Made by a program: the position numbers and the translations under genes. A DNA stretch of 64,000 nt from assembly GCA_964392305.1 (NCBI GenBank), contig CAYMPV010000008.1:1-64000 (forward strand), read 5' to 3'. Below the pieces are notes generated by a model. The model searched no databases. It saw nothing but the letters and a program-made list of their open reading frames with translations, and had not been told where the DNA came from. Shown piece by piece: positions 27,627-63,845 of this stretch. Every line of letters begins with the position of its first letter. Position 1 is the first letter of the stretch. Source of the stretch: an uncultured candidatus Brocadiaceae bacterium. Its GTDB lineage: Bacteria > Planctomycetota > UBA1135 > UBA2386.

Positions 27627-28066
27627 TGTTTTGTACAGGTCTTCCGGTCCTGCAGAGGACCACCAACGAGTGTCTGCCGGCGACGTCCAGGCATGAGCCT
27701 CCGCGGTGCGTGTTCTCGCGAACGCGCGCCCTGGAACTTCGAAACCACCTTGCACTCATTGCCCGGACCGTTGTTCCGGCGCGTTTGATGCGGCTCGCGG
27801 CCACCGCCCCCTCGGGGGACCGGTGCGTCTGCACACCGCCTCGCCGCGCCGCGCTCCGGTCCGGCGTCGGGTCCGTGTCGACGAAGGGGCCAGTGCCCTG
27901 GATCGAACCGGCAGGCACCACCTTCATTCACCAATTGTCCTTCTGCGGATTCCCCACACGGCAACGCAGCGCGAACGGAACGGCGCCGCGTGGTCTTTCT
28001 CGTCCTCGTTCCTGCCAATCGACTCGAAGAAACCGAATCGCACCTCCAAAGAGAAGGAGGCTTCCC

Positions 28067-29185
28067 ATGATCCGCACCTACATCAAGCAGCACGAGCTCG
28101 GTCTCGTGTTCCGTCGCGGCGACCTGATCAAGGTCCTCGCCCCTGGCTCGCACTTCGTCCCCGGTCTGTTCCTGCCCGCGTCGCAGCTGCAGATCGTCAA
28201 CACGCTCGTCACGCGCTTCGTGCACTCGTTGCTCGACGTGCTCGTCGCGCACCCGGCGCTGCGTGAGCACCTGATGGTCGTCGACAACCCGGAGGGGCAG
28301 CGCGCGCTCGTGTGGCGCGACGGCTGCTTGTTCGACTTCGTCGGCGCCGGGCGTTTCGCCTACTGGAAGACGCCGCACAAGTTGAAGGTCGAGACCTTCG
28401 ACGTGCGCGACACCGAGTTCCGGCACGAACAGCGCGACGCGATCCTCTCGACGGAGGCCGCGCGTGTGCACCTCAAGGCGATCGACGTCGACCCGCATGA
28501 GGCCCTGCTCGTGCGGCGCGGCGGCGAGCTGTTCGGTGTCTACGGCGCCGGTCGGCACGTCTTCTGGGCGCACGGGCAGCTGATCGGCTGGAAGGCCGTG
28601 GAGCTGCGCGAGCAGGTCGCGGACGTCGCCGGTCAGGAGATCATGACTGCGGACAAGGTCACGCTGCGTTTGAACCTCGTCGTGTCGTGGCGGATCACCG
28701 ATCCGGTGCGCGCCACCACCGTCGTCGACAACGCCGGCCTCGCCGTCTACCGCGAGGCGCAGCTCGCGCTGCGCGCCGCGGTGGGTGGGCGCACGCTCGA
28801 TCATCTGCTCGCCGACAAGGATCAGGTCGCCAACGAGATCCGCACCGCCGTCGCGCGGCGCGCGGAGCAGTTCGGCGTCGCTGTCGCGTCGGTCGGTATC
28901 CGTGACATCGTGTTGCCCGGCGAGATGAAGACGATCCTGAACCAGGTCATCGAGGCGCAGAAGCAGGCCGAAGCCAACCTGATCCGGCGCCGCGAGGAGA
29001 CCGCGGCGGCGCGCAGTCAGGCCAACACGGCGCGGCTGCTCGCCGAGAACCCGGTGCTGTTGCGGCTCAAGGAGCTCGAGGCGGTCGAGGCGATCGTGCG
29101 CGGGACCCGCGCGACGTTCGTCTTCGGCCCCGGCGAGCTCGCGCCGCAGGTGAAGAGCCTCGTTGCCGCCAAGGATGACGAGTGA
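28067..29185 (+). CDS. SPFH/band-7 (slipin/stomatin-like) protein
   Basis: Strong SD (GAAGGAGG) 6 nt upstream of the ATG. Band-7 core …GQEIMTADKVTLRLNLVVSWRITDPVRATTVV… followed by a coiled-coil tail. Confidence 0.8.
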   Translation: MIRTYIKQHELGLVFRRGDLIKVLAPGSHFVPGLFLPASQLQIVNTLVTRFVHSLLDVLVAHPALREHLMVVDNPEGQRALVWRDGCLFDFVGAGRFAYWKTPHKLKVETFDVRDTEFRHEQRDAILSTEAARVHLKAIDVDPHEALLVRRGGELFGVYGAGRHVFWAHGQLIGWKAVELREQVADVAGQEIMTADKVTLRLNLVVSWRITDPVRATTVVDNAGLAVYREAQLALRAAVGGRTLDHLLADKDQVANEIRTAVARRAEQFGVAVASVGIRDIVLPGEMKTILNQVIEAQKQAEANLIRRREETAAARSQANTARLLAENPVLLRLKELEAVEAIVRGTRATFVFGPGELAPQVKSLVAAKDDE

Positions 29186-29223
29186 GCCGTTGCCGCCGGC
29201 GGAGCGATCCGCCAGCGGCGTTC

Positions 29224-30135
29224 TCATGTTCCGCTCTCGGCCGCGCCCTCACCGTGCCACTCGGCGGTGAGTTCGAGCCACATCGCCAGGCCCTGGAACG
29301 GCGCGTAACGCGCATAACGCTTCCCGATCGCGCGGTCGCTCGGCGCCTTCTTCCTGCCGTCGAGCGCGGCGATGCGGGCGCGGCACCAGCTGTCGAGCGC
29401 GAGGTGTTCGTAGTGGCCGAGCAGGCGCATCGCCTGGCCGGCGGCGTACGGGCCGAAACCGCGCAGTGACGTGAGCCGCTGCCACAGTTCGGCCGCGGGC
29501 TGCGGCGTGAGGAAGGTGTCGTCGCCGAGGCGGCCCGCGGCGAAGTCCTCGGCGAGTTGCACAGCAGCCTCGGCGCGATACCCGGCGCGCACCACGTCGC
29601 GGTAGAAGTCCGCGTCGGCACGGCACTGTTCTGGTGACGGGAACGCGCGGCGGCCGCTCGGCGCGATCGAGCCGCGCGCGGCCACGAGCTTCCTGGTCAT
29701 CGCCTCGGTGCCGGTCCACGTCGTGTTGGTCGTGAACAGCAACTTCATGAGGTCCTCGAACACGCCCGCCGAACGCAGCAGCCGGCCGGCGCCGCGCCGC
29801 GCGGCCCAGCGCAGTTTGGGCTCCTGGCTACAGATCGCATGGAACGCGGCCAGATCGTCATCGAGCCGCAGCATGTGCGTGAGCTGCTTCCCGGCCAGGC
29901 GCACGCCCTGCGCGGGCAGGCGGCGATGCGCCTGCAGTTCGAGCGTCAACGTCCCGGCGTCGGTCTGCCGCAGCGTCGCGTCGACTGCCTGGTCGCCGAG
30001 CCGCAGCACCGTCGTGAACGTCTGCGTCGCCTCGTCGAACTCGTGCGGCGCGAGCGCGACCCAGCCGTGGCCGAACAGGCACAGGCGCAGGTCGAACGGT
30101 GTGTGCACCTTCAGCTCGCTGGTGTGCCTGGCCAT
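29224..30135 (-). CDS. HhH-GPD superfamily DNA glycosylase (AlkA/Ogg-like)
   Basis: AlkA_N-like N-terminus plus helix-hairpin-helix region with catalytic Asp context (…LRGFGPYAAGQAMRLL…HLALDSW…). Confidence 0.6.
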   Translation of the reverse strand: MARHTSELKVHTPFDLRLCLFGHGWVALAPHEFDEATQTFTTVLRLGDQAVDATLRQTDAGTLTLELQAHRRLPAQGVRLAGKQLTHMLRLDDDLAAFHAICSQEPKLRWAARRGAGRLLRSAGVFEDLMKLLFTTNTTWTGTEAMTRKLVAARGSIAPSGRRAFPSPEQCRADADFYRDVVRAGYRAEAAVQLAEDFAAGRLGDDTFLTPQPAAELWQRLTSLRGFGPYAAGQAMRLLGHYEHLALDSWCRARIAALDGRKKAPSDRAIGKRYARYAPFQGLAMWLELTAEWHGEGAAESGT

Positions 30136-51010: not shown

Positions 51011-52126
51011 ATGAAGCTGTTAGCTCACGCTGCCGTGATGCTGCTCGCTGCCGGGCTCGTCGCGCAGAGCGGCAAGCCTCCGGCCAGCCCAGCCACGGCG
51101 GCCTACGACAAGATCGTCGCCGAATGGAAGGCGACGACCGATGCGTACTCGGCGGCCATCAAGGCGATCACCGCCACCGACGAGTACAAGAAGGCCGTCG
51201 CCGACCGCGACCAGAAGGCCCTCACCGCGCTGCGCAGCGGCGTGTCGACGCCGGATGCCAAGCCGCTGGCCGAGCGGTGCCTGCAGACCGCTGCCCAATT
51301 CGATGGCGACGAGCGCGTGCCGTTCTACGCGTGGGTGCTGCAGAACGGCGGCAAGGAAGCCGCTGCGACGGCTGCCGAGAAGCTGCTCGCCGATCACGTC
51401 AAGAGCCCCAAGCTGCTGAGCGTGGTGGAGAGCGGGTCGATGTTGCTGCGATCGCTCGGCCAGGACGCGGGGCAGGAGTTCCTCGCCAAGATCGCCACCG
51501 AGAACCCCAACGACGAGATCCGCGCCTACGCGCTGTTCTGGCCGGCCTACATGGCCTCGCGCGCCAAGGACATCAGCGCCGAGGCCAAGGAAGCCGCGGC
51601 GGCGAAGATCGCCGAAGCGCGTAAGCTCGCCGATGGCACGTTGCTCGCCGACCGCATCGACGCGCCCAAGTTCATCGAGGAGCGTCTGCAGATCGGCATG
51701 GAAGCGCCGGACATCGTCGGCGAGGACGTCGACGGCGTGCCGTTCAAGCTCTCCGACTACCGCGGCAAAGTGGTGGTCATCGACTTCTGGGGATTCTGGT
51801 GAGGCCCTTGCCGGGCCATGATCCCGCACGAGCGGTCGCTCGTGGAGAAGTTGAAGGACCAACCCTTCGCGCTGATCGGTGTGAACAGCGACAAGGACAA
51901 GAGCTACTACGCGCAGCAGCAGCAGGAGATGGGCGTCTCGTGGCGCTCCTTCTGGTGCGGTGAGAAGGGCACTGGCGGTGCCATTCCGACGAAGTGGGGC
52001 GTCACCGGCTGGCCGACGATCTACATCCTCGACCACAAGGGTGTGATCCGCTTCAAGAACCTGCGCAACGAGAAGATGGAAGAAGCCGTCGTGCAGTTGC
52101 TCGAAGAGATGAAGAACGGCGACTGA
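51011..52126 (+). CDS. periplasmic TlpA/ResA-like thioredoxin-fold protein, candidate selenoprotein (in-frame TGA at 51800-51802 = Sec in a W-U-G-P-C redox motif)
   Basis: ORFs 51011..51802 and 51818..52126 are in the same frame. The translation reads …KVVVIDFWGFW-[TGA]-GPCRAMIPHERS…, the canonical thioredoxin WCGPC site with TGA replacing the first Cys codon. Hairpins sit immediately 3' of the TGA. Signal peptide MKLLAHAAVMLLAAGLVAQ. Confidence 0.6.
51803..51844 (+). promoter_or_regulatory. candidate bacterial SECIS element
   Basis: GGCCC-uugcc-GGGCC starts directly after the UGA. CACGAGC-GGUC-GCUCGUG (7-bp stem, GGU in the apical loop) begins 24 nt after the UGA, within the 16-37 nt window typical of bSECIS. 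Confidence 0.4.
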
Positions 52127-52176: not shown

Positions 52177-52432
52177 TGCTGTACGCAGGACTTGCTGTAC
52201 GCAGGATTGTGGTGGAGTCGTGATGGGGGAGCCGGGCCGCTGGCGGATGTGCCGGCGGAGACCCCTTCTCTCCTGGGTTCTGCACCCTGGGTCTCTGCCC
52301 GCCGCCGCTGCGGCGCACTCTCCTCTCCTCGCGCCGGGCGACGGTGTGGCGGGGGCCGGGCGATGTCCTTCGTCCGGCCCCCCTTTCTTTCGAGCTGTAG
52401 AGAAACCCGACGCCCGGTGATGGCCTGCGCGA

Positions 52433-52846
52433 GTGCCGCACGGATGGCCGGTCGTGATGATCTGGCTCGCCTTCGTTTGGATCCTGGTGGCGTCGTTCCT
52501 GGCCGTGAGGGTGGGGCGTCTGCTCTCTCCCGCAGCCGAACCGCAGTCGCCGTTCGCTTCCACCGAGCGTGACGCGTCGGCGGAGTCGCCGGCGCCCGAT
52601 GCGCTCGATCCCGGCCGTCGCACGCTGCTGGATCAGGCGATCGAGACCCTCGACCGGCACGATACGAAGGTCGCCAAGATCGCCCTGCTGAGCTGGATCG
52701 GCGGGTTGTCCGCAGCCGAGATCGGCGCCGTGCTGAACGTCGAGGCTGCCGCGGTCGAGCGAGACCTGCAGACCGCGCGCGAAGTGCTGCGCGGCCTCAC
52801 ACCGGTGCCGCGTGCACGCCAGTGCAGCGGTTGCGCGACGGAGTGA
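52433..52846 (+). CDS. hypothetical TM protein carrying only a sigma-70 region-4-like HTH
   Basis: N-terminal TM helix VVMIWLAFVWILVASFLAV. C-terminus KVAKIALLSWIGGLSAAEIGAVLNVEAAAVERDLQTAREVL resembles ECF sigma region 4. Could be a fragment or a novel membrane regulator. Confidence 0.35.
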   Translation: MPHGWPVVMIWLAFVWILVASFLAVRVGRLLSPAAEPQSPFASTERDASAESPAPDALDPGRRTLLDQAIETLDRHDTKVAKIALLSWIGGLSAAEIGAVLNVEAAAVERDLQTAREVLRGLTPVPRARQCSGCATE

Positions 52847-52975: not shown

Positions 52976-53755
52976 ATGGCATCGGCCACGATCCAACGTT
53001 CGTCAGACCAGGAACTGCAGAGCCGCCTGTATCAGCTGCATGAGCTGACCGGCGACGTGACCCTGCTGCGCCTTGCGCAGCAGTTGCCGCCGTTCGCCGG
53101 CGCGAACATGGCCAGCGCCGAAGAACGCCGCGACTGGGTCGACACGTGCCTGATGAACGCGTTCCGCAACGGCCGCGACTCCGAGGTGTTCGCGCTGCTG
53201 TTCGAACGCAACCGCGGCGAGTTCCTGTCCTGGATCAAACGGCACATCCGCCATCAGCCGCGCCTGGACGCCAACGACGTGCTGCAGCAGGTGTTCCTGA
53301 ACATCTGCCGCTATCCGGACCGGTTCGTCGCCGATCGCGCCGGCGCCTTCCGCATCTGGGGGCAGCGCATCGTGCGCAACACCGTGATCGGACTGGTCGA
53401 AGCCACCAGGCGTCAGCCGCGGTCGCTGCTGCACGACGACGACCTCGTGGAGGATCCCGTGGATCGGCACAACCCGTCGCCGGACGTCGCGGCGCTGCAG
53501 CACGAGGCTGCGGCCGTCGTCGATCATGCCTACCTGCTGTTCCTCGGCCTCTACCTGCGCCACTTCGAACAGCTGTCCGCCAGGGAGCAGCGGGCGTTGA
53601 CCATGGTCGAGGTCGAACAGCGCAGTTACCGCGAGGTCGCCGAACAGCTGGGGATGAGTCTGGCCAACGTCAAGATGATGATCTTCCGCGCCCGGCGACG
53701 CATCACCAACGGCGCAACGCTGTCGCTGCAGCTGTTGGGTGCAGACATGGCTTGA
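52976..53755 (+). CDS. ECF-type RNA polymerase sigma factor
   Basis: Region 2 (…DVLQQVFLNICRYPDRF…) and region 4 (…LSAREQRALTMVEVEQRSYREVAEQLGMSLANVKMMIFRARRR…). Confidence 0.75.
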   Translation: MASATIQRSSDQELQSRLYQLHELTGDVTLLRLAQQLPPFAGANMASAEERRDWVDTCLMNAFRNGRDSEVFALLFERNRGEFLSWIKRHIRHQPRLDANDVLQQVFLNICRYPDRFVADRAGAFRIWGQRIVRNTVIGLVEATRRQPRSLLHDDDLVEDPVDRHNPSPDVAALQHEAAAVVDHAYLLFLGLYLRHFEQLSAREQRALTMVEVEQRSYREVAEQLGMSLANVKMMIFRARRRITNGATLSLQLLGADMA

Positions 53756-54059: not shown

Positions 54060-54488
54060 ATGACCCCGACACGGAAGCCTGCCAAGGCGAAAGATCAGAT
54101 CCTCGACGACCACCGCCAGATCGGCGCCCTGTTGTCGCAAATCCCCAGTTCCGGCAGCGCGGCGCGGACCGTCGACCTGCTGCAGACCCTGGTGCCGTTG
54201 CTGCGGCGTCACTTCCAGGAAGAGGAGGCGGAGATCAGCGGCCTGCACGCGGTGATCCAGCGGCGCACGCCACACCTCGTCTACGCGTTGCAGGACCTCA
54301 AGCGGGACCACACCGAGCTACTGCAGATCGCGCAGGAGCTGTTGGCACTGGCTGGCTCCGCCGACGTCGACGAGGCGCAGCTGCGGCGGCGTGGCCGTGA
54401 GCTCAAGGACGGCATCGCCGTGCACGAGACCAAGGAGACCGAGCTGTTCGTGGACTCGATCTGGACCGACCTGGGGGAGTGTGACTGA
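54060..54488 (+). CDS. hemerythrin-like (HHE cation-binding) domain protein
   Basis: …DHRQIGALL…LRRHFQEEE…HETKETELF… spacing of hemerythrin His/Glu ligands. Confidence 0.6.
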   Translation: MTPTRKPAKAKDQILDDHRQIGALLSQIPSSGSAARTVDLLQTLVPLLRRHFQEEEAEISGLHAVIQRRTPHLVYALQDLKRDHTELLQIAQELLALAGSADVDEAQLRRRGRELKDGIAVHETKETELFVDSIWTDLGECD

Positions 54489-56395
54489 TGACCAGCACGA
54501 CCCAAGGCGCTGGCGCGACGGCTGCCCGAACGAGCAAGGCGCAGGCGCATCGTGTGCGTGAGCACATCGTCGAGATCGTCAGCGATTCGGGTGAGGGCGC
54601 GCAGAAGGCCGGGCAGACCTATGGCGCGGTCAGCGCCAAGATGGGCAACGGCGTCTGGACGGTGGAGATCATCCCCGCGGAGATCAAGCCGCCGGCGCGC
54701 TCGAGGGCCGGCGCCAGCGGCATCCGTGTGCGCGTCGGTGTGGAGAAGGTCACCAACACCGGTGATCAGGCCGATCTCGTCGTCGCGCTCAACGAGCAGG
54801 TGCTCTACGGGCGCATCGAGCAGAAGGCCTACAAGCCGGGCACGATCGTGCTGCTCGAGAGCAAGTGGGCAAAGGACCCTCGCGAAGAGGTGCGACGCGA
54901 CTACGCCGCTGCGCTGCTCGAGTTCCGCGCGCTGGGCCTCGACGTGCGTGAGGTCGCGCTCGAGGAGGCCTGCCAGCAAGTCGCCCAGGACGTGCGGGTC
55001 GGCAAGAACATGTTCGTGCTCGGCCTGCTCTGTTACATCACCTGTCGCGACCTCGATCGCGCCATGGAAGAGGTTGCGTTCGTGTTCGCCAAGAAGGGCG
55101 CGCAGGTGATCGCGCGCAACCAGGACCTGGTGCGTGCCGGTCACGCGTTCGGCGCGCAGGTCCTGGAGCAGCGCTACGAGATCCCGCCGCGCGAAGTGAC
55201 GCGGCGGATGATGGTGCTGAACGGCAATCAGGCGATCGCGCTCGGCGTGATGGCCGCCGGCATCGAGATGGTGGCGATGTATCCGATCACGCCGGCGACT
55301 TCGGTGTCGCACCATCTGGCCAGCGCCTTCCGCGGCGTCGGCGGCGTGGTGCACCAGGCCGAGGACGAGATCGCTGCGATCGGCTTCGCGATCGGCGCGT
55401 CGTACGCGGGCAAGACCGCGTGCACGGTGACTTCCGGGCCCGGCCTCGCGCTGAAGACCGAGTTCCTCGGGCTGGCGGTGATGGCCGAGGTGCCACTCGT
55501 GTTCGTGCTGGTGCAGCGCGGCGGTCCGAGTACGGGCCTGCCCACCAAGGTCGAGCAAGGTGACCTGTTAGCGGCGCTCTACGGCCAACCAGGCGATACG
55601 CCGAAGATCGTGATCGCCCCGGCGACGATCGAGGAGTGTCTGCACTTCGTGGTCACCGCACGCAAGCTCGCCGAGGCGTTCCGCATGCCGGTGATGCTGC
55701 TGACCGACGCCAATCTGGCCACCGGTGTGCAGCCGATTCCGCGGCCCGAGGTGTCGGCCGACTGGCTGTCCCCACCGCTGGATCAGGCGCCGTGGCAGCG
55801 CGATGTCACCGCCTACGACTGGGACCCGGACACCGGCCTGTCGCCGCGGCCGATCCCTGGCCAGAAGGGCGGGGAGTACGTGCTCACCGGGCTGGCGCAC
55901 ACCAAGAACGCCAAGGTCGCCTATGACCCCGATTCCAACCAGACCGGCTGTGCGATGCGCAGCCGCAAGCTGGCGGTGTTCGGCGAATCGCTGCGGCCGC
56001 CGCAGGTGCACGGCGATCCCGACGGCGACCTGCTGGTCGTCGGCTGGGGTTCGACGCTCGGCTCGATCGAAGAGGCCGTCGACCGCGCGCGCGCCGAAGG
56101 GCACCGCGTCTCCTCGCTGCACCTGCGCTTCCTGTCGCCGCTCGAGCCGGGCCTGGCGGCGATCTTCAAGCGCTTCCGCCGGGTGGTCACCGTGGAGATC
56201 AACTACAGCGACGCGTCCGGCGCGCCACACGTGACCGCCGACAACCGCCGCATCGCGCAGCTCGCGCAGCTGCTGCGCACCCACACGCTGATGGACATCG
56301 ACTGCTGGTCCAACGTGGCCGGTCAGCCGATCCAACCGGGGGCGATCCACACCGAGGTCTTGCGCCGATTGCAGGCGCTGCGAGGAGAATCGTGA
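54488..56395 (+). CDS. korA: 2-oxoacid:ferredoxin oxidoreductase, fused gamma/alpha subunit
   Basis: N-terminal gamma-like domain then the alpha Pyr domain (…GNQAIALGVMAAGIEMVAMYPITPATSVSH…EDEIAAIGFAIGASYAGKTACTVTSGPGLALKTEFLGLAVMAEVPLVFV…). ATGA overlap with the preceding gene. Confidence 0.85.
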   Translation: MTSTTQGAGATAARTSKAQAHRVREHIVEIVSDSGEGAQKAGQTYGAVSAKMGNGVWTVEIIPAEIKPPARSRAGASGIRVRVGVEKVTNTGDQADLVVALNEQVLYGRIEQKAYKPGTIVLLESKWAKDPREEVRRDYAAALLEFRALGLDVREVALEEACQQVAQDVRVGKNMFVLGLLCYITCRDLDRAMEEVAFVFAKKGAQVIARNQDLVRAGHAFGAQVLEQRYEIPPREVTRRMMVLNGNQAIALGVMAAGIEMVAMYPITPATSVSHHLASAFRGVGGVVHQAEDEIAAIGFAIGASYAGKTACTVTSGPGLALKTEFLGLAVMAEVPLVFVLVQRGGPSTGLPTKVEQGDLLAALYGQPGDTPKIVIAPATIEECLHFVVTARKLAEAFRMPVMLLTDANLATGVQPIPRPEVSADWLSPPLDQAPWQRDVTAYDWDPDTGLSPRPIPGQKGGEYVLTGLAHTKNAKVAYDPDSNQTGCAMRSRKLAVFGESLRPPQVHGDPDGDLLVVGWGSTLGSIEEAVDRARAEGHRVSSLHLRFLSPLEPGLAAIFKRFRRVVTVEINYSDASGAPHVTADNRRIAQLAQLLRTHTLMDIDCWSNVAGQPIQPGAIHTEVLRRLQALRGES

Positions 56396-57348
56396 TGTTC
56401 GGACTCAAGGACGACTGGGAACTGGAAGTGCCCGAGCGCTACTTCACCCTCGAGGACTACGAGGGGGGCACCGCACGCTGGTGTCCTGGCTGCGGTGACC
56501 TGGCCGTGCTCACGTCCGTGCAGCGCATCTGCCGCGACGAGCAACTGCCGCCCGAGCAGACCGTGTGTGTGTCGGGCATCGGCTGCAGCAGCCGCTTCCC
56601 GCACTACATGAAGACCTACGGCTTCCACGGCCTGCACGGCCGCGCGCTGCCGGTGGCCTGCGGCGTCAAGTCGCGTCGGCCCGATCTCACCGTGTGGGTC
56701 GCCACCGGCGATGGTGACTGCTGCTCGATCGGCGCGGGGCACTGGGTGCACGCCATCCGCTACAACATGGACATGGTGGTGATGTTGTTCGACAACGCCA
56801 TCTACGGGCTGACCAAGAACCAGACGTCGCCGACCAGCCCGCAGGGGCTGCACACCAACACCCACCCGCGCGGCGCCTGGTTGCCGCCGCTCAATCCGAC
56901 GGCGGCGACGCTCGGCTTCGCCAACGTCTCGTTCGTGGCGCAGACCGTCGATTGGAACCCTGCGCACCTCTACGCGACGCTCAAGTGCGCCTACCAGCAC
57001 AAGGGGCTCAGCTTCGTGCGCATCATGCAGCGTTGCCCGACCTACACCCCGCAGGTGTTCGCGGAGATGCAGAAGGACCCGTCGCAGCTGCTGCTGCTCA
57101 CGGGTGGTGACAACCCCCAACTGGACGCTGCCACGACGCGCACCTTCCCCAACCAGCTGGCGCACGACAGCCGCGACCTCGCTGCCGCGCGCGCGGTCGC
57201 CGAGCAGCACGAGCCCCTGCCGATCGGCGTGCTCTATCGCGATCCCGATCGGCCGCGCTACGAGGACTTCACCACGGTGGGGCTGGGCATGTCCGACGGC
57301 GACAAGTTGGCCGGACTCGAACGCGAACTCGACAAGTTCTCGGTGTGA
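56392..57348 (+). CDS. korB: 2-oxoacid:ferredoxin oxidoreductase beta subunit (TPP-binding)
   Basis: WCPGCGDLAV…GIGCSSRFP…intact GDGD…N TPP motif (VATGDGDCCSIGAGHWVHAIRYNMDMVVMLFDNAIYGLTKNQ). Start overlaps the korA stop. Confidence 0.85.
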   Translation: MMFGLKDDWELEVPERYFTLEDYEGGTARWCPGCGDLAVLTSVQRICRDEQLPPEQTVCVSGIGCSSRFPHYMKTYGFHGLHGRALPVACGVKSRRPDLTVWVATGDGDCCSIGAGHWVHAIRYNMDMVVMLFDNAIYGLTKNQTSPTSPQGLHTNTHPRGAWLPPLNPTAATLGFANVSFVAQTVDWNPAHLYATLKCAYQHKGLSFVRIMQRCPTYTPQVFAEMQKDPSQLLLLTGGDNPQLDAATTRTFPNQLAHDSRDLAAARAVAEQHEPLPIGVLYRDPDRPRYEDFTTVGLGMSDGDKLAGLERELDKFSV

Positions 57349-59663
57349 CCACGATGACGCGGACCGAACCTTCGAACGCCGGCGCGCTTCGCGAACTGCG
57401 GCGCTGGCACCTGGGCGGCGGCACTGCGGCGCCGTTGCCTGCGGACGCCGTGCCGCTGCTGCTGGCGCCGTTCCGCGATCCGGCGCGGGTGCGCCACGAC
57501 TATCCACTGGTGTTGCGTCGGGTGGACGGCGCTCTCGAGGCGCGGCCGCTCGGTGATCTCCTGCCCGAGTGGTTGGCCGGCGCGAAGACCCAGGCGCGGG
57601 TGCTCGTCGACAACAGCCACCGGCTGGAGCGGCGGGTGCGGCTACAGGTCGCGCACGAACCCGACCGCGACGCGCGGGAGCTGCTGCGTGAGGCCGGCGC
57701 GCAGATGCTGGCGGAAATGCAGCTGCACAGTGAAGTCGAGTCGGCCGTGCGCGCCGACTACGACGCAATCTGCGCCGAGCTGCCCGACTTCGAGCTGTTG
57801 CCGCTGCGTAGCGAGACCGCGCTGGGTTTGCTGCAGACCGCGATCTCACAGCGCGTGGGCTCGGCCCGCGCGCAGTTCGCGGCGCACGTCCGCGATCTGG
57901 TCGGGGCGCTGCAGGCGCTGCTGCAGATCGAGGCGCAGAAGGACCCCGCCGCGCACTCCGCGCAGGCGGTCGGACGCAGTCTCGGCGGCGCCGCGGTGCA
58001 GTTCTTCGACGCCGGCGCGCTGGCGCGCACCGTCGGCCCACACCGCGGCACGGTGCGCGTCGATCCGGCCCGCCGGGCTCGCGTGCAGCAGGCGTTGACG
58101 ACGCTCGAGAGCCACCTCGTGGCCTCGCACGCGCCCGAGTGCGTGGTCGTTGCAAGCGATGCGGCCATCCGCTTCGACGGTCTCGCCGCGGACCTGCTGG
58201 CGACGGTGCGCGCCGCGCGGCTCGCCGAGCTCGAACGTCGCGGCGCCTACGACCCCGAGCGACACGACGCGCTGCTCGCCGCACTGGGCTGGCAAGAACT
58301 CACCCCCGAGGAACTGGCGATCCTGCCGGTTGTGGTGATGCAGACTTCGGTCACCGAGCTCGCCAACCACGGCCTGCAGTCACTGATGCAGCTGCTGGTG
58401 TCGGGGCGCCCCGTACAAGTGCTCGTCGAGGAGTCGCCGGGTCGCGATCCGATGTCGATGGACGGGGCGCCGCGTGTGCGGCTCGAACTGGGTTATCTCG
58501 GTATCGCCTGCCGCGAGGCGTTCGTCCAGCAGTCGACCGCGGCGCGGCCAGCACATCTGCTGCGCGGCTTCGAGCGCGCCTTGTGCGGCATGCGCACGGG
58601 TCTGCACCTGGTCGACCCGGGCCTCGACGCGATGCATCGCGAACCGCCGCTGGGTTCGTTCCTGCACGCGGGCGCGGCGATCGAAGGTCGCGCGCAGCCG
58701 CTGTTCCAATACGACCCGGCGGGCGGCGAGACCTGGGCACGCCGTCTCGACTTCGCCGGCAATCCGGCGCCCGACGCGGATTGGCCGGGCGTCGATGGAG
58801 GCAGCGCGGCCGGCGGGACCCAGGTGTTCACCTTCGCCGACTACTCGCTGCTCGAGCCGCACCTTCGCGACGCATTCGCCTTGGTGCCCGCAGAACTGGA
58901 CAGCACCGATCTCGCGCCGATCGCGGCGTTCTTGCAGCTCGACGACGACGCGGCCCGGCGCAGCATCCCGTTCGTCGTGTTCGTCACCGGCGACGGCACG
59001 CAGGGGCGCGCTGCCGTGCGCCGCTGGCTGGTGCACGCCTGCCGCGACCGGCTGCGTTACTGGCGCACGCTGCAGGAGCTGGCCGGGGTGCGCAACGAAC
59101 ACGTTCGTGAGGCCGTGCAGTTGGCGCGCCGCGAAGCCGCCGAGCAGGCCACGCGCGAGCGCGCGGCGCTGGCGCAGGCGCACGCCACAGAGCTGGCCGC
59201 GGTGCGTGAGCAGGCGACGGCGACGGCGATGCAGGGGCTCGCGCGCATGTTGCTGGAGATCGACCCGCTCGGCGAGGCCGTTGCTGCGGCGCCAGTCGTC
59301 TTGCCACGCGCGGCGACGTCGGCCGCGCCTGTTGCCGCGGCCGCGACCGCACCAACGACGGTTCTCGTGCCCGCCGCAGCGGCGGTGCCGGCCGCCGTGG
59401 ACGAAGACGACTTCGACGAACCCTGGATCGACTCGCCGCGCTGCTCGACCTGCAACGACTGCGTCAACCTCAACTCCCTGATGTTCGTCTACGACGCGAA
59501 CAAGCAGGCGCGCATCGCCGACCCGCGGGCCGGCACCTACGCGCAGCTGGTGCAAGCGGCCGAGAAGTGCCCGTCCCGCTGCATCCACCCCGGCAAGCCG
59601 CTGAACCCCGACGAGCCCGACCTGCAGGCGCTCGTCGCGCGCGCGGCGCCATTCAACACCTGA
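57345..59663 (+). CDS. hypothetical 772-aa protein with a PFOR C-terminal-like module and an atypical Cx2Cx2C…CP Fe-S motif
   Basis: …FVVFVTGDGTQG… TPP-loop remnant. LFQYDPAGGETWARRLDFAGNPAPD resembles the PFOR domain-VI end (LF-YDPR…NP). C-terminal CSTCNDCVNLN…EKCPSRCIHPG. C-terminal region is paralogous to the 1287-aa protein (WRTLQELAGVR…AHATELAAVR). Confidence 0.55.
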   Translation: MTTMTRTEPSNAGALRELRRWHLGGGTAAPLPADAVPLLLAPFRDPARVRHDYPLVLRRVDGALEARPLGDLLPEWLAGAKTQARVLVDNSHRLERRVRLQVAHEPDRDARELLREAGAQMLAEMQLHSEVESAVRADYDAICAELPDFELLPLRSETALGLLQTAISQRVGSARAQFAAHVRDLVGALQALLQIEAQKDPAAHSAQAVGRSLGGAAVQFFDAGALARTVGPHRGTVRVDPARRARVQQALTTLESHLVASHAPECVVVASDAAIRFDGLAADLLATVRAARLAELERRGAYDPERHDALLAALGWQELTPEELAILPVVVMQTSVTELANHGLQSLMQLLVSGRPVQVLVEESPGRDPMSMDGAPRVRLELGYLGIACREAFVQQSTAARPAHLLRGFERALCGMRTGLHLVDPGLDAMHREPPLGSFLHAGAAIEGRAQPLFQYDPAGGETWARRLDFAGNPAPDADWPGVDGGSAAGGTQVFTFADYSLLEPHLRDAFALVPAELDSTDLAPIAAFLQLDDDAARRSIPFVVFVTGDGTQGRAAVRRWLVHACRDRLRYWRTLQELAGVRNEHVREAVQLARREAAEQATRERAALAQAHATELAAVREQATATAMQGLARMLLEIDPLGEAVAAAPVVLPRAATSAAPVAAAATAPTTVLVPAAAAVPAAVDEDDFDEPWIDSPRCSTCNDCVNLNSLMFVYDANKQARIADPRAGTYAQLVQAAEKCPSRCIHPGKPLNPDEPDLQALVARAAPFNT

Positions 59664-59670
59664 GGCGGCG

Positions 59671-60501
59671 ATGAGCGACGTGCTGATGGCCGGAGCGATC
59701 ATGGCGGGCCTGGGCGTGCTGCTCGGCGCGATGCTCGCGTTCGCCTACCGGTTCCTGCGTGTGCCCGAGGACCCGCGCACCGCTCGTGTCGAACAGTTGC
59801 TGCCCGGTACCAACTGCGGCGGCTGCGGCGAGCCGGGTTGCCGCGCGTTCGCCGAAGCGCTCACCGCCGGCGCGCGACAGCCGTCGGGCTGCACGGTCGC
59901 CGGTCCTGATGCGGTGGCCGCGATCGCGACCTTCCTCGGAGTCGATGCGGGCACGAGCGATCGACGCGTCGCGCGGCTGCATTGCGCCGGCGGCAAGGCC
60001 CAGGCGGTGCAGATCGCCGCCTACGACGGTTTCGCGAGCTGCCGCGGTGCGCACGTCACCGGCGGCGGCGGCAAGGGTTGCAGCTGGGGCTGCCTGGGCC
60101 TCGCCGATTGCCAGCGCGCCTGCGACTTCGGCGCGATCACGATGAACGACAACGGTCTGCCGGTCGTCGACGTCGACAAGTGCACCGCGTGCGGCGATTG
60201 CGTCGTCGCCTGCCCGCGCGACCTGTTCGAGCTGTTGCCGATGCGGCAGCCGCTGCTGGTGCAGTGCCGCGTGCCGCTCGCCGGCGAGGCGGCGCGCAAC
60301 CTGTGCGCGGTGGCTTGCGACGCCTGCGGCCGCTGCGTGCAAGACGCCCCAGAGGGATTGTTGCGCATGGTCGACAACCTGCCGGTGGTCGACTACGCGA
60401 GTGTCGTCGACGCCGGGCCGACGCCGACGTTTCGCTGCCCGACCGGCGCCATCCAGTTCGTCGCCAGGACTCAGTTCGCGCGGCAGGAGGTGCGTGCATG
60501 A
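59671..60501 (+). CDS. rnfB: RnfB-like membrane-anchored Fe-S protein (stand-alone)
   Basis: N-terminal TM helix. RnfB signature LPGTNCGGCGEPGCRAFAEAL. Two 4Fe-4S ferredoxin motifs (CTACGDCVVACP, CDACGRCVQDAP). Confidence 0.75.
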   Translation: MSDVLMAGAIMAGLGVLLGAMLAFAYRFLRVPEDPRTARVEQLLPGTNCGGCGEPGCRAFAEALTAGARQPSGCTVAGPDAVAAIATFLGVDAGTSDRRVARLHCAGGKAQAVQIAAYDGFASCRGAHVTGGGGKGCSWGCLGLADCQRACDFGAITMNDNGLPVVDVDKCTACGDCVVACPRDLFELLPMRQPLLVQCRVPLAGEAARNLCAVACDACGRCVQDAPEGLLRMVDNLPVVDYASVVDAGPTPTFRCPTGAIQFVARTQFARQEVRA

Positions 60502-63500
60502 GGTTCTCCGTCGAAACGCCGTCGCGCGCCGAGTTGCCGATCGCGGGTTGTCTGTTGGCGTCCGGCGACGCGCGGGCTGACCTGGCCCAGGCGATGGGGC
60601 GCTGCGAAGCGGGCCAACGCGCGACCGCCGTGATCGCGGGTGCGGAGCTGATGCGGGTCGCCGACCTGCTGCAGGACGCGGCCCGGCGCCAGCTCGCCTG
60701 CGTGGTGCGCACCGCCCTGACCGACGGCGACGACGCGCTGTTCACAGTCGCCGACAGCGGCGCCGTCGTCTTGGTCGCGCGCGGTGACGAGGTGCCGGTC
60801 GTGCACTTGATCGCACGACTGCTCGCGGAACGCGCGCTGCTGCCCGTGGTGCTCGTGGCGGCGCCCGCGACGGCCGACGCCGCGCCTCGCGAACTGCCTG
60901 CGGCGGCGCTCGAACTGCTCGGCGCACCCGAGGACTTCGTGCGTTCGGCGACGCCCTCGCAGGAGCATCTGTTCGGTCGCGATCGGCGCCGCGTGGTGCG
61001 TTGGTTCGACCTCGAACGGCCGGTGTTGCGCGGCCAGCGGGCGCAGCCGGCCGTGGCCACGCTGCAGCGCGCGGGTTTCGGGCCGTTCGTGCAGGCGCCG
61101 GTCCGGACGCTGCTGCAGGACGTCGCCGCCGAGGTCCAGCTCGCAACGGGGGCCACCTGGTCGGCCGTGGACACTGCGAACTGCGATCGCGCCGAGGTGC
61201 TCGTGATCGGCCTCGCCGGCGTCACCGCGGCGCTGCCCGCCGACGGCAAGACGTCGCGCGTCGGGTGCGTCACCATCAACTGTCTGCGACCGTTCCCGGA
61301 GTCCTGGCAGGCACACCTGCGCGGCAAGAAGGCGGTCGTCGTGGTCACCGCAGCGGTCAACGCGCTCGCCGAGGCGCTGCTGCTACGTGAAGTGCGCGCC
61401 GCGCTGGTGCGTGAGCAGACCGAGGCGCGCGCCGCGCGTCGGCCGTTCAAGGACAAGGAGGTACCGTCGCTGCACGTGGCGGTAACCGCGCGCGCCGATG
61501 GCGGCGTGTCGCCAGAGGAACTCGCCGCGTTCGTGCGTGAGTGCGGCGAAGGTGCGGGGCGTCCGTTCGTGCACCTGGGCGTCGCGTTCGCGCCGCTGGA
61601 CGTCGCCTCGCGCAAGCGGCTGGTGCTGCACGAAGCGCTGCGCCGCTCACACCCTGGCATCGAGAGGCTCGGGGCGCGCCTGGCCCCGGCCGCCGCGCTC
61701 GCGGTGGTGCCGTCCGCACCACGCCGTGTCGCCGCACCCGCGCAGATCGCTCCGACCCACGACGATCGACTGCGCGCCTGGGATGTAGTCGCTGCGGCCT
61801 CCGTGGCCGGCACGACGGCGGACCTGGGCCCCGATCCGTACCTGACGGCCGGTTCCGCGCCGGCGCTCACGTCGCTGTTCCGCGGCAACGCCGCGACCGA
61901 CAATCTGCCGGCGTTCACGGCGCAACGGTGCACCGGCTGCGGTGCGTGTTGGACCGCCTGTCCCGACGCGGCCCTGCTGCCGGCGGTGGTCGGGGCCGGC
62001 GAACTGATCGAATGCGGCATGGCAGCGGTCGCGGCGACAGGTGCCACTGCCGAAGCACTGCGACCCGTTGTCGCGCGAATCGCCAAGGCGTTGCCCAAGG
62101 CGATCGCTGCGGGTGCCTGCACGGCGGGTGCCGCGGTGCACGGCGCGAGCGCGACCGCTCTCGCCAAACTCGACGAGTCGCGTCGGGGCGCGGCGCAGCA
62201 GGCTGCGGCAGCGGTCGCCGACGCACTCGCAGCGTTGCCGGTCGTCGGTGGCATGCCGTTCGCCGACGGTCAGCCGCTGGTGCTGGCGCTCGATCCCGAC
62301 GCCTGCAAGGGTTGCGACTTGTGCGTGACGGCCTGCGAACCCGGGGCGCTGCAGCGCGGAGCACGTTCGGCCGAGGCCGTGCAGCAGGCGCGCGCCGGCG
62401 CGGCGGCCTGGCGGGCGTTGCCCGACACGGCCGGCGCAGTGATCCACGCGGCGCGTGAACTGTCCGAGCCCGGCCTGCTCGGCGCGCTGGAGTTGTCGCG
62501 GCACTGCCTGCTGACGATGGCGCCCGGCGACGACGCCGAACCCGGCAGCGGTGCGCGGCTGGCGCTGCGCACCGTGCTGGCGGTGAGTGAAGCCCATCTG
62601 CAGCCCAAGTTGCTGCGCCACGTGCAGCACCTCGACGAGCTCGCGGCGAAGTTCGGCGAACGCATCCGCGGGATGCTCGCGGGGGCCTTGCCGGTGACCG
62701 ATCTCGAGGCGCTGCACGAAGGCCTGGCCACGCTGGGCGCCGGCGCTGTGGCCTTGTCGACGCTGGCGAGCCGTCTCGACGAGGTGCAGGTCAGTGGGCG
62801 GGTCGACGGCGGCAAGTTGCAGCTGCTGGTCGAGACCGCGCGCGCCGTCGCCGATCTGCGTTGGCGTGTGCAGCAGGGCCGCAACGGTTGCGGCCGCGCG
62901 CGCAGCGGCCTGGTGCTCGCCGGCGGCGAGGCCGAGGCGTTGGCCGGCGACTTCCCCTGGAATCCGTTCGCGTCGCCCGCTGTGCTCGACGGCAGCCGCG
63001 AGGCGGGGGCGCGCGCCCTGGGGATGCTGCGCGGACAGGTTGCGGCGTTGGCCGCGAACTTCGCGTTGCTGCGCCGCGCCGAGTCGCTGTTGCAGCAAGG
63101 TGCGCCAGGGCCACGTCACCTGGGCTTCGCCGAGCTGGAGCCGGCCGAACGCGAGTTGTGCCCGCCGCTGTGGCTGGTCGTCGACGGCGACGCCTTGCGG
63201 TGCGGCGGTCTCGCGCAGCTCGCCGCGGTCCTGGCGCACGACCTGCCCGTCAAGGTGCTGTTGCTCTCGCCATCGACCACCGCGGTCGATGGCCCGTCGC
63301 CGGCGCGCCTCGCGCTCGCGTTCCCGCGGGCGTTCGTGCTGCAGTCGACCGTCGCGCACCGCGATCACCTCGCGGCTGGTGTGCTCGCCGCGTGCGAACA
63401 TCCGGGACCGGCCCTGGTGCACGTGCTCGCGCCGAGCCCACGCGCCGCCGGCGCGGCGCCCGACCGTACGCTCGCCATCGCCGCCGACGCCGTCGCTCGG

Positions 63501-63845
63501 CGCGCCTTCCCGCTGCTGCGCTACGACCCGCGGTTGCCGGGCGCGTTCGGCCAGAAGCTGTCGCTCGACGGCAATCCATCGCCGCAGCAGCCGGGCACAG
63601 ACGACCCCGAGCACCTCGCCGCGTGGCAGCTGCTGCAGGAACTCGCGGGCGTGCGCACGCCGTTCACCCACGTGGTCGAAGAACGGGCTGCGGCTGCGGT
63701 CGCCGCCGCACACGCGCAGGAACTCGCGGCCATGCGCGCCGCGCACGAAGACGAACTGCTGCGACTGCGCAGCAGTGTCGAGACCGAACTGCTGGCCCGG
63801 TTGCAGCGCAAGCTGACGACGCTGGCGGCGGGAGCGCGGCCGTGA
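60498..63845 (+). CDS. single-chain pyruvate:ferredoxin oxidoreductase (PFOR/NifJ)-like protein with degenerate catalytic motifs (possible pseudo-enzyme)
   Basis: Domain I/II-like N-terminus (…TINCLRPFPESWQAHLRGKKAVVVV…). Two ferredoxin motifs (CTGCGACWTACP, CKGCDLCVTACEP). TPP-domain remnant LWLVVDGDALRCGGLAQLAAVLAHDLPVKVLLLSPS (GDG to DGD, no NTGGQ). PFOR-type C-terminus LLRYDPRLPGAFGQKLSLDGNPSP. ATGA overlap with rnfB, GTGA overlap with the next gene. Confidence 0.65.
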   Translation: MRFSVETPSRAELPIAGCLLASGDARADLAQAMGRCEAGQRATAVIAGAELMRVADLLQDAARRQLACVVRTALTDGDDALFTVADSGAVVLVARGDEVPVVHLIARLLAERALLPVVLVAAPATADAAPRELPAAALELLGAPEDFVRSATPSQEHLFGRDRRRVVRWFDLERPVLRGQRAQPAVATLQRAGFGPFVQAPVRTLLQDVAAEVQLATGATWSAVDTANCDRAEVLVIGLAGVTAALPADGKTSRVGCVTINCLRPFPESWQAHLRGKKAVVVVTAAVNALAEALLLREVRAALVREQTEARAARRPFKDKEVPSLHVAVTARADGGVSPEELAAFVRECGEGAGRPFVHLGVAFAPLDVASRKRLVLHEALRRSHPGIERLGARLAPAAALAVVPSAPRRVAAPAQIAPTHDDRLRAWDVVAAASVAGTTADLGPDPYLTAGSAPALTSLFRGNAATDNLPAFTAQRCTGCGACWTACPDAALLPAVVGAGELIECGMAAVAATGATAEALRPVVARIAKALPKAIAAGACTAGAAVHGASATALAKLDESRRGAAQQAAAAVADALAALPVVGGMPFADGQPLVLALDPDACKGCDLCVTACEPGALQRGARSAEAVQQARAGAAAWRALPDTAGAVIHAARELSEPGLLGALELSRHCLLTMAPGDDAEPGSGARLALRTVLAVSEAHLQPKLLRHVQHLDELAAKFGERIRGMLAGALPVTDLEALHEGLATLGAGAVALSTLASRLDEVQVSGRVDGGKLQLLVETARAVADLRWRVQQGRNGCGRARSGLVLAGGEAEALAGDFPWNPFASPAVLDGSREAGARALGMLRGQVAALAANFALLRRAESLLQQGAPGPRHLGFAELEPAERELCPPLWLVVDGDALRCGGLAQLAAVLAHDLPVKVLLLSPSTTAVDGPSPARLALAFPRAFVLQSTVAHRDHLAAGVLAACEHPGPALVHVLAPSPRAAGAAPDRTLAIAADAVARRAFPLLRYDPRLPGAFGQKLSLDGNPSPQQPGTDDPEHLAAWQLLQELAGVRTPFTHVVEERAAAAVAAAHAQELAAMRAAHEDELLRLRSSVETELLARLQRKLTTLAAGARP

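What the first reader, a model, noticed from the sequence alone, without database searches (positions are those of the whole stretch)
51011..52126. Candidate selenoprotein: TlpA-like thioredoxin-fold protein with UGA replacing the first Cys of WCGPC
Two adjacent ORFs are in the same frame and are separated only by a TGA (51800-51802). The read-through translation gives …VVVIDFWGFW-U-GPCRAMIP…. That is exactly the thioredoxin/TlpA active site (VxDFWAxWCGPC) with the stop codon at the attacking Cys position. Sec-for-Cys substitutions at CxxC redox sites are a recognised signature of bacterial selenoproteins. A 7-bp stem with a GGUC loop begins 24 nt after the UGA, which is bSECIS-like geometry, and another hairpin abuts the UGA. 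The protein carries a signal peptide and an N-terminal domain of about 250 aa, so it would be a periplasmic selenoprotein disulfide reductase.
Basis: partly seen in the sequence, partly recalled or inferred. Interest (0 to 1): 0.85.

Follow-up and report, generated by a model that had tools for sequence, protein, structure and literature searches.

The report
Exported TlpA-like selenoprotein gene, mis-split
The two adjacent ORFs are one gene for a secreted thioredoxin-fold protein whose active-site cysteine is replaced by selenocysteine (UGA); this kind of bacterial selenoprotein is already known, and annotation pipelines routinely cut it in two.

Summary
Window 51011-52126 (+) is one 371-codon gene. 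An in-frame TGA (51800-51802) sits at the first position of a WUGPC active site in a TlpA/ResA-like thioredoxin fold. A signal peptide and a helical-repeat domain of about 200 aa precede it.

In 80 related loci from Planctomycetota and Verrucomicrobiota genomes, all 90 copies found have TGA at this column. The same genes end in TAG, TGA or TAA in mixed proportions. The reading frame stays conserved after the TGA. Cys-containing homologues align Cys to it.

The hairpin ACGAGC-GGUC-GCUCGU (51828-51843) meets the published bacterial SECIS criteria. It is identical at the nucleotide level, synonymous sites included, in 72 of 88 copies from genomes of 48-74% GC. Four of seven Cys homologues with the same peptide have synonymous changes that disrupt it. 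A second subgroup uses a shifted hairpin with compensatory changes.

The hairpin abutting the UGA is not conserved. The Sec machinery of this genome could not be examined.

UxxC thiol-disulfide-isomerase-like and Prx-like selenoproteins have been catalogued since 2005, including candidates in a planctomycete. This is therefore a new member of a known kind, of modest interest.

The parts
51011..52126 (+). Complete selenoprotein gene: 371 codons including Sec264, with the true stop TGA at 52124-52126
   Evidence: Read-through translation. Coding signal on both sides of the internal TGA. Full-length Cys homologues of 365-413 aa align end to end.
51011..51067 (+). Probable Sec-type signal peptide, MKLLAHAAVMLLAAGLVAQ, with cleavage after the conserved A18-Q19
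   Evidence: Sequence inspection. A18 and Q19 are nearly invariant or invariant in A4. The segment is a low-confidence N-terminal helix in the model. No signal-peptide predictor was available.
51089..51685 (+). N-terminal all-helical repeat (alpha-solenoid, TPR/HEAT-like) domain, residues ~27-225
51692..52114 (+). TlpA/ResA-like thioredoxin-fold domain, residues 228-368
   Evidence: Pfam AhpC-TSA 3e-16, Redoxin 3.8e-16, Thioredoxin_8 9e-13. PDB sequence matches ResA 5e-16, DsbE-like and TlpA. Model of Cys homologue P0012 has pLDDT 91.
51800..51802 (+). Sec codon UGA (residue 264), first position of the redox motif U-G-P-C (51800-51811)
   Evidence: Aligns with Cys of WCxxC in homologues. TGA in 90 of 90 related copies.
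51827..51844 (+). bSECIS hairpin CACGAGC-GGUC-GCUCGUG. The apical loop is 51834-51837 and the invariant core is 51828-51843. It lies within the His-Glu-Arg-Ser-Leu-Val codons.
   Evidence: Fold. Five codons identical in 71-72 of 72 copies while neighbouring codons vary. The exact 15-mer occurs in the fetched loci only 28 nt after the Sec/Cys column of this family. There is a single copy in the window.
51803..51817 (+). Hairpin GGCCC-UUGCC-GGGCC abutting the UGA. Present here, but not a conserved feature and probably not functional.
   Evidence: All five pairs are intact in only 20 of 88 copies, and the hairpin is absent in every copy with Pro-Pro-Cys.
52351..52382 (+). Nearest terminator-like site downstream on the + strand. 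It is a consensus match only, but it fits a transcript that runs through both ORFs.
   Evidence: No + strand terminator-like site lies between 51011 and 52126.

Best explanation
Window 51011-52126 encodes one exported, two-domain selenoprotein: a signal peptide, an alpha-solenoid domain of about 200 aa, and a TlpA/ResA-like thioredoxin fold with the active site Trp-Sec-Gly-Pro-Cys.

During translation the UGA at 51800 is read as selenocysteine. The hairpin 24 nt downstream (51827-51844, loop GGUC) acts as a bacterial SECIS that recruits SelB-GTP-Sec-tRNASec to the ribosome. The UGA-to-Cys alignment and the conservation are shown here. The SelB step is inferred from the known mechanism.

After export, the selenolate of Sec264 would attack a substrate disulfide (or sulfenic/oxidised thiol). 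Cys267 would resolve the mixed selenylsulfide. The resulting Se-S bond would be re-reduced by a membrane electron shuttle of the CcdA/DsbD type. The helical N-domain would bind the substrate or a partner. All of this paragraph is inferred from the fold and from TlpA/ResA biochemistry.

The gene belongs to a large family in Planctomycetota and Verrucomicrobiota in which the Sec form predominates. It often occurs in tandem copies.
For: Homologues
- About 70 of the best 120 protein hits are 257-278 aa long and all end in ...DFWG[FDY]W. Full-length homologues carry FWGxWC[GP]PC at the same column.
- A scan of GTDB species genomes found 584 relatives. In the best 80 loci, 88 copies (90 with the two added) all have TGA there, followed by [GPS]PC[RV]xMxPHE[RK].
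- The real stop codons of the same genes are TAG 34, TGA 31 and TAA 21.

Translation through the UGA
- Codon-position entropy after the TGA keeps the coding pattern: positions 1, 2 and 3 give 0.39, 0.35 and 1.16, then 0.76, 0.37 and 1.42.

SECIS
- The four published bSECIS criteria (PMC13188914) are met. The loop is 4 nt, the stem is 7 bp, GG occupies the first loop positions, the spacing is 31 nt, and the energy is -11.9 kcal/mol.
- The codons CAC GAG CGG TCG CTC are identical in 71-72 of 72 copies from loci of 48-74% GC. With the window's codon usage, the chance of these five codons given the peptide is 1.6%.
- Third-position entropy across all 88 copies drops to 0.28 in these codons.
- Cys homologues with the same HERSLV peptide carry disrupting synonymous changes in 4 of 7 cases, against 0 of 73 Sec forms (Fisher p = 2e-5). 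One of these is a Cys paralogue lying between two Sec paralogues on a single contig (L162).
- A subgroup of 12 copies uses a hairpin shifted about 7 nt in the 3' direction. It has 3 pairs changed on both sides, 89.6% of cells paired, and 0 of 500 shuffles reach its covariation score.

Fold and literature
- Pfam, PDB sequence matches and AlphaFold models support the domain assignment.
- Planctomycetes with complete selA/selB/selD sets, and Sec candidates annotated 'thiol-disulfide isomerase-like thioredoxin', are reported in PMC4807772.
Against: - No tRNA-Sec, selA, selB or selD lies in the 64-kb window or in any fetched flank. The rest of the genome could not be read, so the machinery is assumed.
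- The hairpin alone is only marginally more stable than shuffles.
- It differs from the E. coli fdhF SECIS, which has 11-nt spacing and a bulged U17 (PMC8659212). Here the spacing is 24 nt and there is no bulge.
- Rfam holds no matching model.
- Three Cys forms, and two variants with TGG or CGA at the Sec column, still carry the intact hairpin. The hairpin sequence is therefore not strictly tied to UGA. Recent conversion is the simplest explanation.
- Three copies (PHEREMV type) show no convincing SECIS.
- Nothing tested here addresses the reductase function, the export, or the role of the N-domain. No gene neighbour is conserved that could hint at a pathway.
Confidence: 0.88

Rival explanations
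1. The TGA is a real stop. The locus would be a pseudogene, a sequencing or assembly error, or a genuinely split gene giving a 263-aa N-terminal protein and a separate 102-aa C-terminal fragment starting at Met270.
For: Gene callers and NCBI annotate it this way: P0001 is 263 aa and P0002 is named 'redoxin domain-containing protein' at 263 aa. An ATG follows 15 nt after the TGA. The Sec machinery was not seen.
Against: The same TGA is found in an independent assembly and in 90 of 90 copies from 80 other genomes at 35-85% identity. The residues between the TGA and the Met (Gly/Pro-Pro-Cys-Arg-Ala) are conserved as amino acids while their codons vary synonymously, so they are translated. A split would leave half a thioredoxin fold on each piece and no catalytic nucleophile. 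The true terminal stops of these genes use all three stop codons.
Confidence: 0.02
2. The UGA is read through, but not as selenocysteine. It could be read by near-cognate insertion of Trp, Cys or Arg, or by a local stop-codon reassignment, with the hairpin acting as a generic read-through stimulator.
For: The Sec machinery was not observed. Variants with TGG (Trp) and CGA (Arg) at the same column exist with the hairpin intact.
Against: TGA is the normal stop of most genes in this window, so it is not reassigned. The position is the catalytic Cys of a CxxC motif, where only Cys or Sec gives an active enzyme. The hairpin has the G-G/U apical-loop signature and the spacing of the bSECIS model. 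UxxC Trx-fold proteins of this kind are established selenoprotein families (PMC1088965, PMC2398784, PMC13188914). Planctomycetes with full Sec machinery are documented.
Confidence: 0.03
3. It is a selenoprotein, but not a general periplasmic disulfide reductase. It could be a dedicated maturation factor, as ResA/CcmG are for cytochrome c and TlpA is for Cu-protein assembly. It could also be a peroxide- or sulfenate-reducing antioxidant enzyme (Prx-like), or an oxidase/isomerase.
For: The top Pfam hit is AhpC-TSA. The closest solved relatives are ResA, DsbE/CcmG and TlpA, which are substrate-specific reductases. The large helical N-domain suggests a specific partner. Multiple tandem paralogues suggest diversified substrates.
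Against: The peroxiredoxin signature PxxxTxxC/U is absent; the site is WUGPC. NCBIfam scores for ResA (68 against cut-off 170), TlpA (55 against 230) and DsbE (48 against 123) are all far below their cut-offs, so it is not an orthologue of any of them. No cytochrome c maturation or copper genes are conserved next to it.
Confidence: 0.3

Closest known systems
[quoted passage not shown] Sources: Zhang, Fomenko & Gladyshev 2005 (PMC1088965); GOS 2008 (PMC2398784); 2026 review (PMC13188914).
   Same: TlpA-like/Redoxin/AhpC-TSA domain. Sec replaces the first Cys of CxxC. Cys homologues are widespread. The SECIS lies immediately downstream inside the coding region.
   Different: This protein has a ~200-aa helical-repeat N-domain and a signal peptide. 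The subfamily is concentrated in Planctomycetota and Verrucomicrobiota. I could not check whether the catalogued example sequences belong to this exact subfamily. No NCBIfam selenoprotein model reaches its cut-off.
Selenoprotein candidates 'thiol-disulfide isomerase-like thioredoxin' in planctomycete P1 (Kim et al. 2016, PMC4807772, Table S9)
   Same: Same phylum and same annotation class. Split into two gene calls. The closest hit has Cys at the aligned position.
   Different: bSECISearch found no SECIS for those two genes. Here a clear hairpin is present, and a second type sits just outside the program's spacing window, which might explain such misses (inference).
TlpA (Bradyrhizobium), ResA (Bacillus) and CcmG/DsbE: extracytoplasmic Cys-based thiol:disulfide reductases
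   Same: Same fold and a WCxxC-type site. Exported or membrane-anchored. PDB sequence matches of 5e-16 to 1e-13.
   Different: Those use Cys, have no helical N-domain, and sit in or near cytochrome c or copper maturation pathways. This protein scores far below their equivalog cut-offs, so it is not their orthologue.
E. coli fdhF SECIS
   Same: Hairpin inside the coding sequence just 3' of the UGA. The apical loop contains the G-U needed for SelB (loop GGUC, identical to fdhF by my own recollection; G23/U24 per PMC8659212).
   Different: 24 nt lie between the UGA and the stem base here, against 11 nt in fdhF. There is no bulged U in the 5' arm. The stem is perfectly paired.

Membership tests
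Bacterial selenoprotein gene | In-frame UGA with protein-coding sequence on both sides in one frame | tested here: met
   GC3 is 0.89 before and 0.90 after the UGA. It is the only such TGA in the window. The codon-position entropy pattern continues after the TGA.
Bacterial selenoprotein gene | UGA aligns with a conserved (catalytic) Cys in homologues | tested here: met
   FWGFW-U-GPC here, against FWGxW-C-[GP]PC in more than 40 Cys homologues and in ResA.
Bacterial selenoprotein gene | UGA conserved at the same position in orthologues of other organisms | tested here: met
   90 of 90 copies in 80 genomes. Terminal stops of the same genes are TAG 34, TGA 31 and TAA 21.
Bacterial selenoprotein gene | bSECIS downstream of the UGA: loop 3-9 nt, stem 4-16 bp, G in the first two loop positions, 16-37 nt from UGA to loop, MFE <= -7.5 kcal/mol (PMC13188914) | tested here: met
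   loop GGUC, 7 bp, 31 nt, -11.9 kcal/mol. Synonymous-site conservation is shown. Covariation in the variant hairpin is shown.
Bacterial selenoprotein gene | Genome encodes selA, selB, selD and tRNA-Sec | not testable with these tools
   None is in the window or in the fetched flanks. The trait is documented in the phylum (PMC4807772).
Bacterial selenoprotein gene | Selenium actually incorporated (75Se labelling or mass spectrometry) | not testable with these tools
   This needs an experiment.
TlpA-like thioredoxin-fold family (Pfam Redoxin/AhpC-TSA; cd02966) | Domain match above the curated cut-off | tested here: met
   AhpC-TSA 59.9 bits (cut-off 26), Redoxin 59.7 (26.6), Thioredoxin_8 48.9 (27).
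TlpA-like thioredoxin-fold family (Pfam Redoxin/AhpC-TSA; cd02966) | W-C-x-x-C redox motif at the start of helix alpha1 of the Trx fold | tested here: met
   Present as W-U-G-P-C. In the model of Cys homologue P0012 the motif lies between strand 265-271 and helix 276-280.
TlpA-like thioredoxin-fold family (Pfam Redoxin/AhpC-TSA; cd02966) | Extracytoplasmic location (signal peptide or membrane anchor) | tested here: inconclusive
   The N-terminus has a hydrophobic core and a conserved A-Q. No dedicated predictor was available.
Orthologue of ResA, TlpA or DsbE/CcmG proper | Score above the NCBIfam equivalog or subfamily cut-off | tested here: not met
   ResA 68 against 170, TlpA 54.8 against 230, DsbE 47.7 against 123.
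Peroxiredoxin (Prx) selenoproteins | PxxxTxxC/U peroxidatic motif | tested here: not met
   The active-site region is DFWGFWUGPC, with no Thr-x-x-Sec (motif as quoted in PMC13188914).
E. coli fdhF-type SECIS | Upper hairpin 11 nt from the UGA with a bulged U17 and G23/U24 in the loop (PMC8659212) | tested here: not met
   G and U are present in the loop, but the spacing is 24 nt and there is no bulged U.

The most novel reading that the evidence does not exclude
This may be the founding example of a distinct, very large subfamily specific to the PVC superphylum: exported selenoproteins with an alpha-solenoid plus a TlpA-like domain. At least 584 loci were found in species-representative genomes, often in tandem arrays mixing Sec, Cys and degenerate copies. 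The SECIS would be written into an almost invariant His-Glu-Arg-Ser-Leu-Val coding block, and it would have been replaced at least once by a differently placed hairpin that falls just outside the standard bSECIS search window. If so, current SECIS-based surveys would undercount these genes, and the family could be the dominant selenoprotein of these phyla.
Probability: 0.4. Interest if true: 0.45.

Novelty: new member of a known kind. Interest (0 to 1): 0.3.

Why it matters
Practically, this is an annotation error repeated in hundreds of Planctomycetota and Verrucomicrobiota genomes. A catalytic selenoprotein is recorded as a truncated 'hypothetical' or 'redoxin domain' protein plus an orphan fragment.

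Biologically, it shows that these phyla invest selenium in exported thiol-redox enzymes. It also gives a clean natural data set for studying what a bacterial SECIS needs when it must also encode a conserved peptide: Sec, Cys and decayed paralogues side by side, and two alternative hairpin solutions.

It does not change what is known about selenoprotein biology.

Tried and rejected
- Rfam on the whole window and, permissively, on 51600-52000: no SECIS-like family, only chance hits.
- tRNA-Sec search in the window and in 80 flanks: none.
- tblastn with E. coli SelA, SelB and SelD (sequences recalled from memory) against all fetched DNA: only a PrfC GTPase in L058.
- Pfam on about 40 window ORFs: no Sec machinery.
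- Retrieving the window's own contig through P0001: only a 1.5-kb Logan contig came back.
- Other same-frame ORF pairs in the window (junctions at 35176, 39825, 31541): ordinary adjacent genes.
- Metagenome scan for Cys forms: mostly distant generic TlpA proteins, only two useful loci. Cys controls were obtained by exact look-ups instead.
- Conserved gene neighbourhood: none.
The N-terminal ORF and a Cys homologue were modelled instead.
- The hairpin abutting the UGA was considered as part of the SECIS and rejected.

Full report
**Observation.** The window has 69.5% G+C. ORF 51011-51802 (263 aa) ends in TGA at 51800-51802. The same frame stays open to TGA at 52124-52126. The read-through product is ...SDYRGKVVVIDFWGFW-*-GPCRAMIPHERSLVEKL.... 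The segment after the stop has the same coding signature as the one before it: GC3 is 0.90 against 0.89, and GC2 is 0.38 against 0.47. A scan of both strands for in-frame TGAs with coding signal over 50 codons on each side returned this site alone. Three other same-frame ORF junctions are ordinary gene boundaries. An independent Logan assembly of run SRR15237806 carries the identical 263-aa ORF ending in the same stop, so a one-off assembly error is unlikely. The hairpin CACGAGC-GGUC-GCUCGUG is at 51827-51844, 24 nt after the UGA. A second hairpin, GGCCC-UUGCC-GGGCC, lies at 51803-51817.

**Comparative evidence for recoding.**
- A protein search returned 1717 relatives. About 70 of the best 120 are 257-278 aa long, share 43-85% identity, and all end in ...DFWG[FDY]W. 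That is one residue before the Cys of FWGxWC[GP]PC in the full-length homologues.
- A scan of one genome per GTDB species found 584 relatives. The best 80 loci come from Planctomycetota and Verrucomicrobiota MAGs and contain 88 copies. All 88 have TGA at that column, followed in frame by [GPS]PC[RV]xMxPHE[RK]SLV.... A motif search found two more copies.
- The genuine stop codons of the same genes are TAG 34, TGA 31 and TAA 21. The exclusive use of TGA internally is therefore not a compositional effect.
- Across the 88 copies, column entropy at codon positions 1, 2 and 3 is 0.30, 0.08 and 1.01 before the TGA. After it the values are 0.39, 0.35 and 1.16, and further on 0.76, 0.37 and 1.42. Purifying selection on the protein continues through the stop. 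This includes the Gly/Pro-Pro-Cys residues that lie before the next Met, which rules out re-initiation at that Met.

**The SECIS.** The published consensus for bacterial SECIS elements has four criteria: an apical loop of 3-9 nt, an upper stem of 4-16 bp, a G in the first two loop positions (usually followed by G or U), 16-37 nt between the UGA and the loop, and MFE <= -7.5 kcal/mol (PMC13188914). The window's hairpin has a GGUC loop, 7 bp, 31 nt of spacing and -11.9 kcal/mol.

Taken alone the hairpin is not statistically striking. Its z-score is about -1.9 against shuffles, and 42 of 2000 synonymous resamples fold as well. The comparison with other genomes is decisive.
- In the 72 copies that encode His-Glu-Arg-Ser-Leu at this place, the codons are CAC (71 of 72), GAG, CGG, UCG and CUC (72 of 72 each). 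Neighbouring Arg, Leu, Ser, Pro, Gly and Ala codons use four to six synonyms.
- The loci range from 48% to 74% G+C.
- With this window's codon usage, those five codons have a probability of 1.6% given the peptide.
- Without any pre-selection of sequences, third-position entropy over all 88 copies falls to 0.28 in these five codons.
- The exact 15-mer occurs once in the window. In about 1.9 Mb of fetched loci it occurs only 28 nt after the Sec/Cys column of this family.
- The outermost pair is dispensable: the Val third position varies, and C-G is present in 43 of 72 copies.

The link to the UGA is shown by Cys homologues that encode the same HERSLV peptide. Four of seven have synonymous changes that break the loop or stem: CGA...CUG in P0012, CUG in P0043, CGC...CUA in P0027 and GAA in P0036. 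This compares with 0 of 73 Sec forms (Fisher p = 2e-5). P0012 is especially informative, because it lies between two Sec paralogues on one contig (L162) and both of those keep the hairpin. Three Cys forms, plus one TGG and one CGA variant, still have the hairpin. These are most simply explained as recent changes of the UGA.

A second subgroup of 12 copies (peptide PHEK[TAES]LV) lacks this hairpin. It has one about 7 nt further 3' instead, for example GACGCU-CGUGA-AGCGUC. This hairpin shows compensatory changes that couple the Thr/Ala/Ser/Glu codon to the Arg/Leu codon four positions later. On the alignment, 89.6% of cells pair, three pairs change on both sides, the covariation score is 0.248 against 0.113 for shuffles (0 of 500 reach it), and slid controls collapse to 31-48% paired. 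Three copies of a third type have no convincing hairpin.

It disappears whenever the motif is U-P-P-C, so it is a side effect of the Gly-Pro-Cys-Arg-Ala codons.

**What could not be shown.** No tRNA-Sec, selA, selB or selD lies in the window or in any flank. The rest of this genome could not be reached with the tools. The Sec trait is documented for Planctomycetes: complete selA/selB/selD sets occur in two new genomes, in Gemmata and in Isosphaera (PMC4807772). TGA is the ordinary stop of most genes here, which excludes reassignment. Export, reductase activity and the role of the helical domain are inferences from the fold. No gene neighbour is conserved across 81 loci. In this window the gene sits between a sulfatase and ECF sigma-factor genes.

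**Comparison with what is known.** UxxC thioredoxin-fold selenoproteins are among the commonest bacterial selenoproteins.
- 'Prx-like 1' (pfam00578, UxxC, 225 genes) and 'Prx-like 3' (pfam08534) were defined in GOS (PMC2398784).
- The 2026 review lists a cd02966 UxxC family and a PF08534 UxxC family (PMC13188914).
- Kim et al. 2016 list two 'thiol-disulfide isomerase-like thioredoxin' Sec candidates in a planctomycete, each split into two gene calls, for which bSECISearch found no SECIS (PMC4807772 Table S9).

The present gene is therefore a new member of a known kind. The parts I did not find described are the helical N-domain architecture, the size of the family in the PVC phyla, the frozen HERSLV-coded SECIS, and the alternative shifted hairpin. 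These are refinements, not a new principle. Relative to the E. coli fdhF SECIS (upper hairpin 11 nt from the UGA, bulged U17, G23/U24 in the loop; PMC8659212), this element shares the G-U-containing loop. It differs in having 24-nt spacing and no bulge.

**Verdict.** I put the probability that this is a genuine Sec-encoding gene at about 0.95. I put the probability that it acts as an exported thiol:disulfide reductase at about 0.6. It is a new member of a known kind, with interest about 0.3. Its main value is as an annotation correction and as a tidy natural data set on SECIS constraints.

Noticed in passing
L162:1963-5500 (also L016, L020, L022, L032, L037, L042, L050, L054): The family often occurs as tandem paralogues. 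L162 carries Sec, Cys and Sec copies in a row. The Cys copy has lost the SECIS through two synonymous changes, while both Sec copies keep it.
   Followed up: yes
Proteins P0013, P0015, P0017, P0018; L079:4976: Some array members are degenerate. These gene calls start at the Met just after one copy's UGA and run into a next copy whose CxxC motif is gone (for example FQGNRYSPGR). L079 has a decayed copy (W*GRSR) that still carries the hairpin sequence.
   Followed up: partly
L171:1234 and L172:1913: Two homologues have TGG (Trp) or CGA (Arg) at the Sec column with the type-1 hairpin intact. Both codons are single-base neighbours of TGA. They could be recent mutations, strain variants or read errors.
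   Followed up: partly
L041, L042, L051, L052, L056, L059, L070, L072, L073, L076, L077, L080 (alignment A3, columns 11-31): Type-2 genes carry an extra strong hairpin around the Met codon between the UGA and the covarying hairpin. It appears in three different registers and is built from synonymous choices such as Arg CGU, Gly GGG and Pro CCC. Its role is unknown.
   Followed up: no
L062:10595, L069:1297, L074:10499: Three Sec copies with the peptide PHEREMV have neither type of SECIS hairpin. The only candidate is a stem AUGCUC/GAGCGU whose loop lacks a G in its first two positions.
   Followed up: no
L170:2-1081 (- strand), TGA at 860-862: An FG-GAP repeat protein has an in-frame TGA followed by TGC (…PGVW-U-CTSSTPQFVDIDGDG…), with coding sequence continuing. 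It is possibly another selenoprotein, of the FG-GAP/ASPIC type listed as a candidate in PMC4807772 Table S9.
   Followed up: partly
L025, L039, L043 (record titles): Contigs titled Akkermansia muciniphila, Bifidobacterium sp. and Alcaligenaceae carry this PVC-type gene. L039 is nearly identical to L038, which is titled Verrucomicrobiia. The MAG bins are probably mislabelled or contaminated.
   Followed up: no
window 52433-52846 and 52976-53755: Two ECF-type sigma factor ORFs lie directly downstream of the selenoprotein gene; the first matches only the C-terminal part of the model. Sigma-70/ECF genes also lie next to homologues in L162, L166 and L167, but no neighbour was conserved across 81 loci.
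   Followed up: partly
window 54488-63845: This is a cluster of 2-oxoacid:ferredoxin oxidoreductase-like genes (POR/POR_N, TPP_enzyme_C) followed by two large ORFs with 4Fe-4S ferredoxin domains.
   Followed up: no
window 27552-27626: tRNA-Ser (GCU) is the only tRNA in the window. It overlaps the 5' end of long ORFs on both strands (27536-29185 +, with an SPFH/Band 7 domain, and 27563-29227 -), so those ORF starts are overcalled.
   Followed up: no
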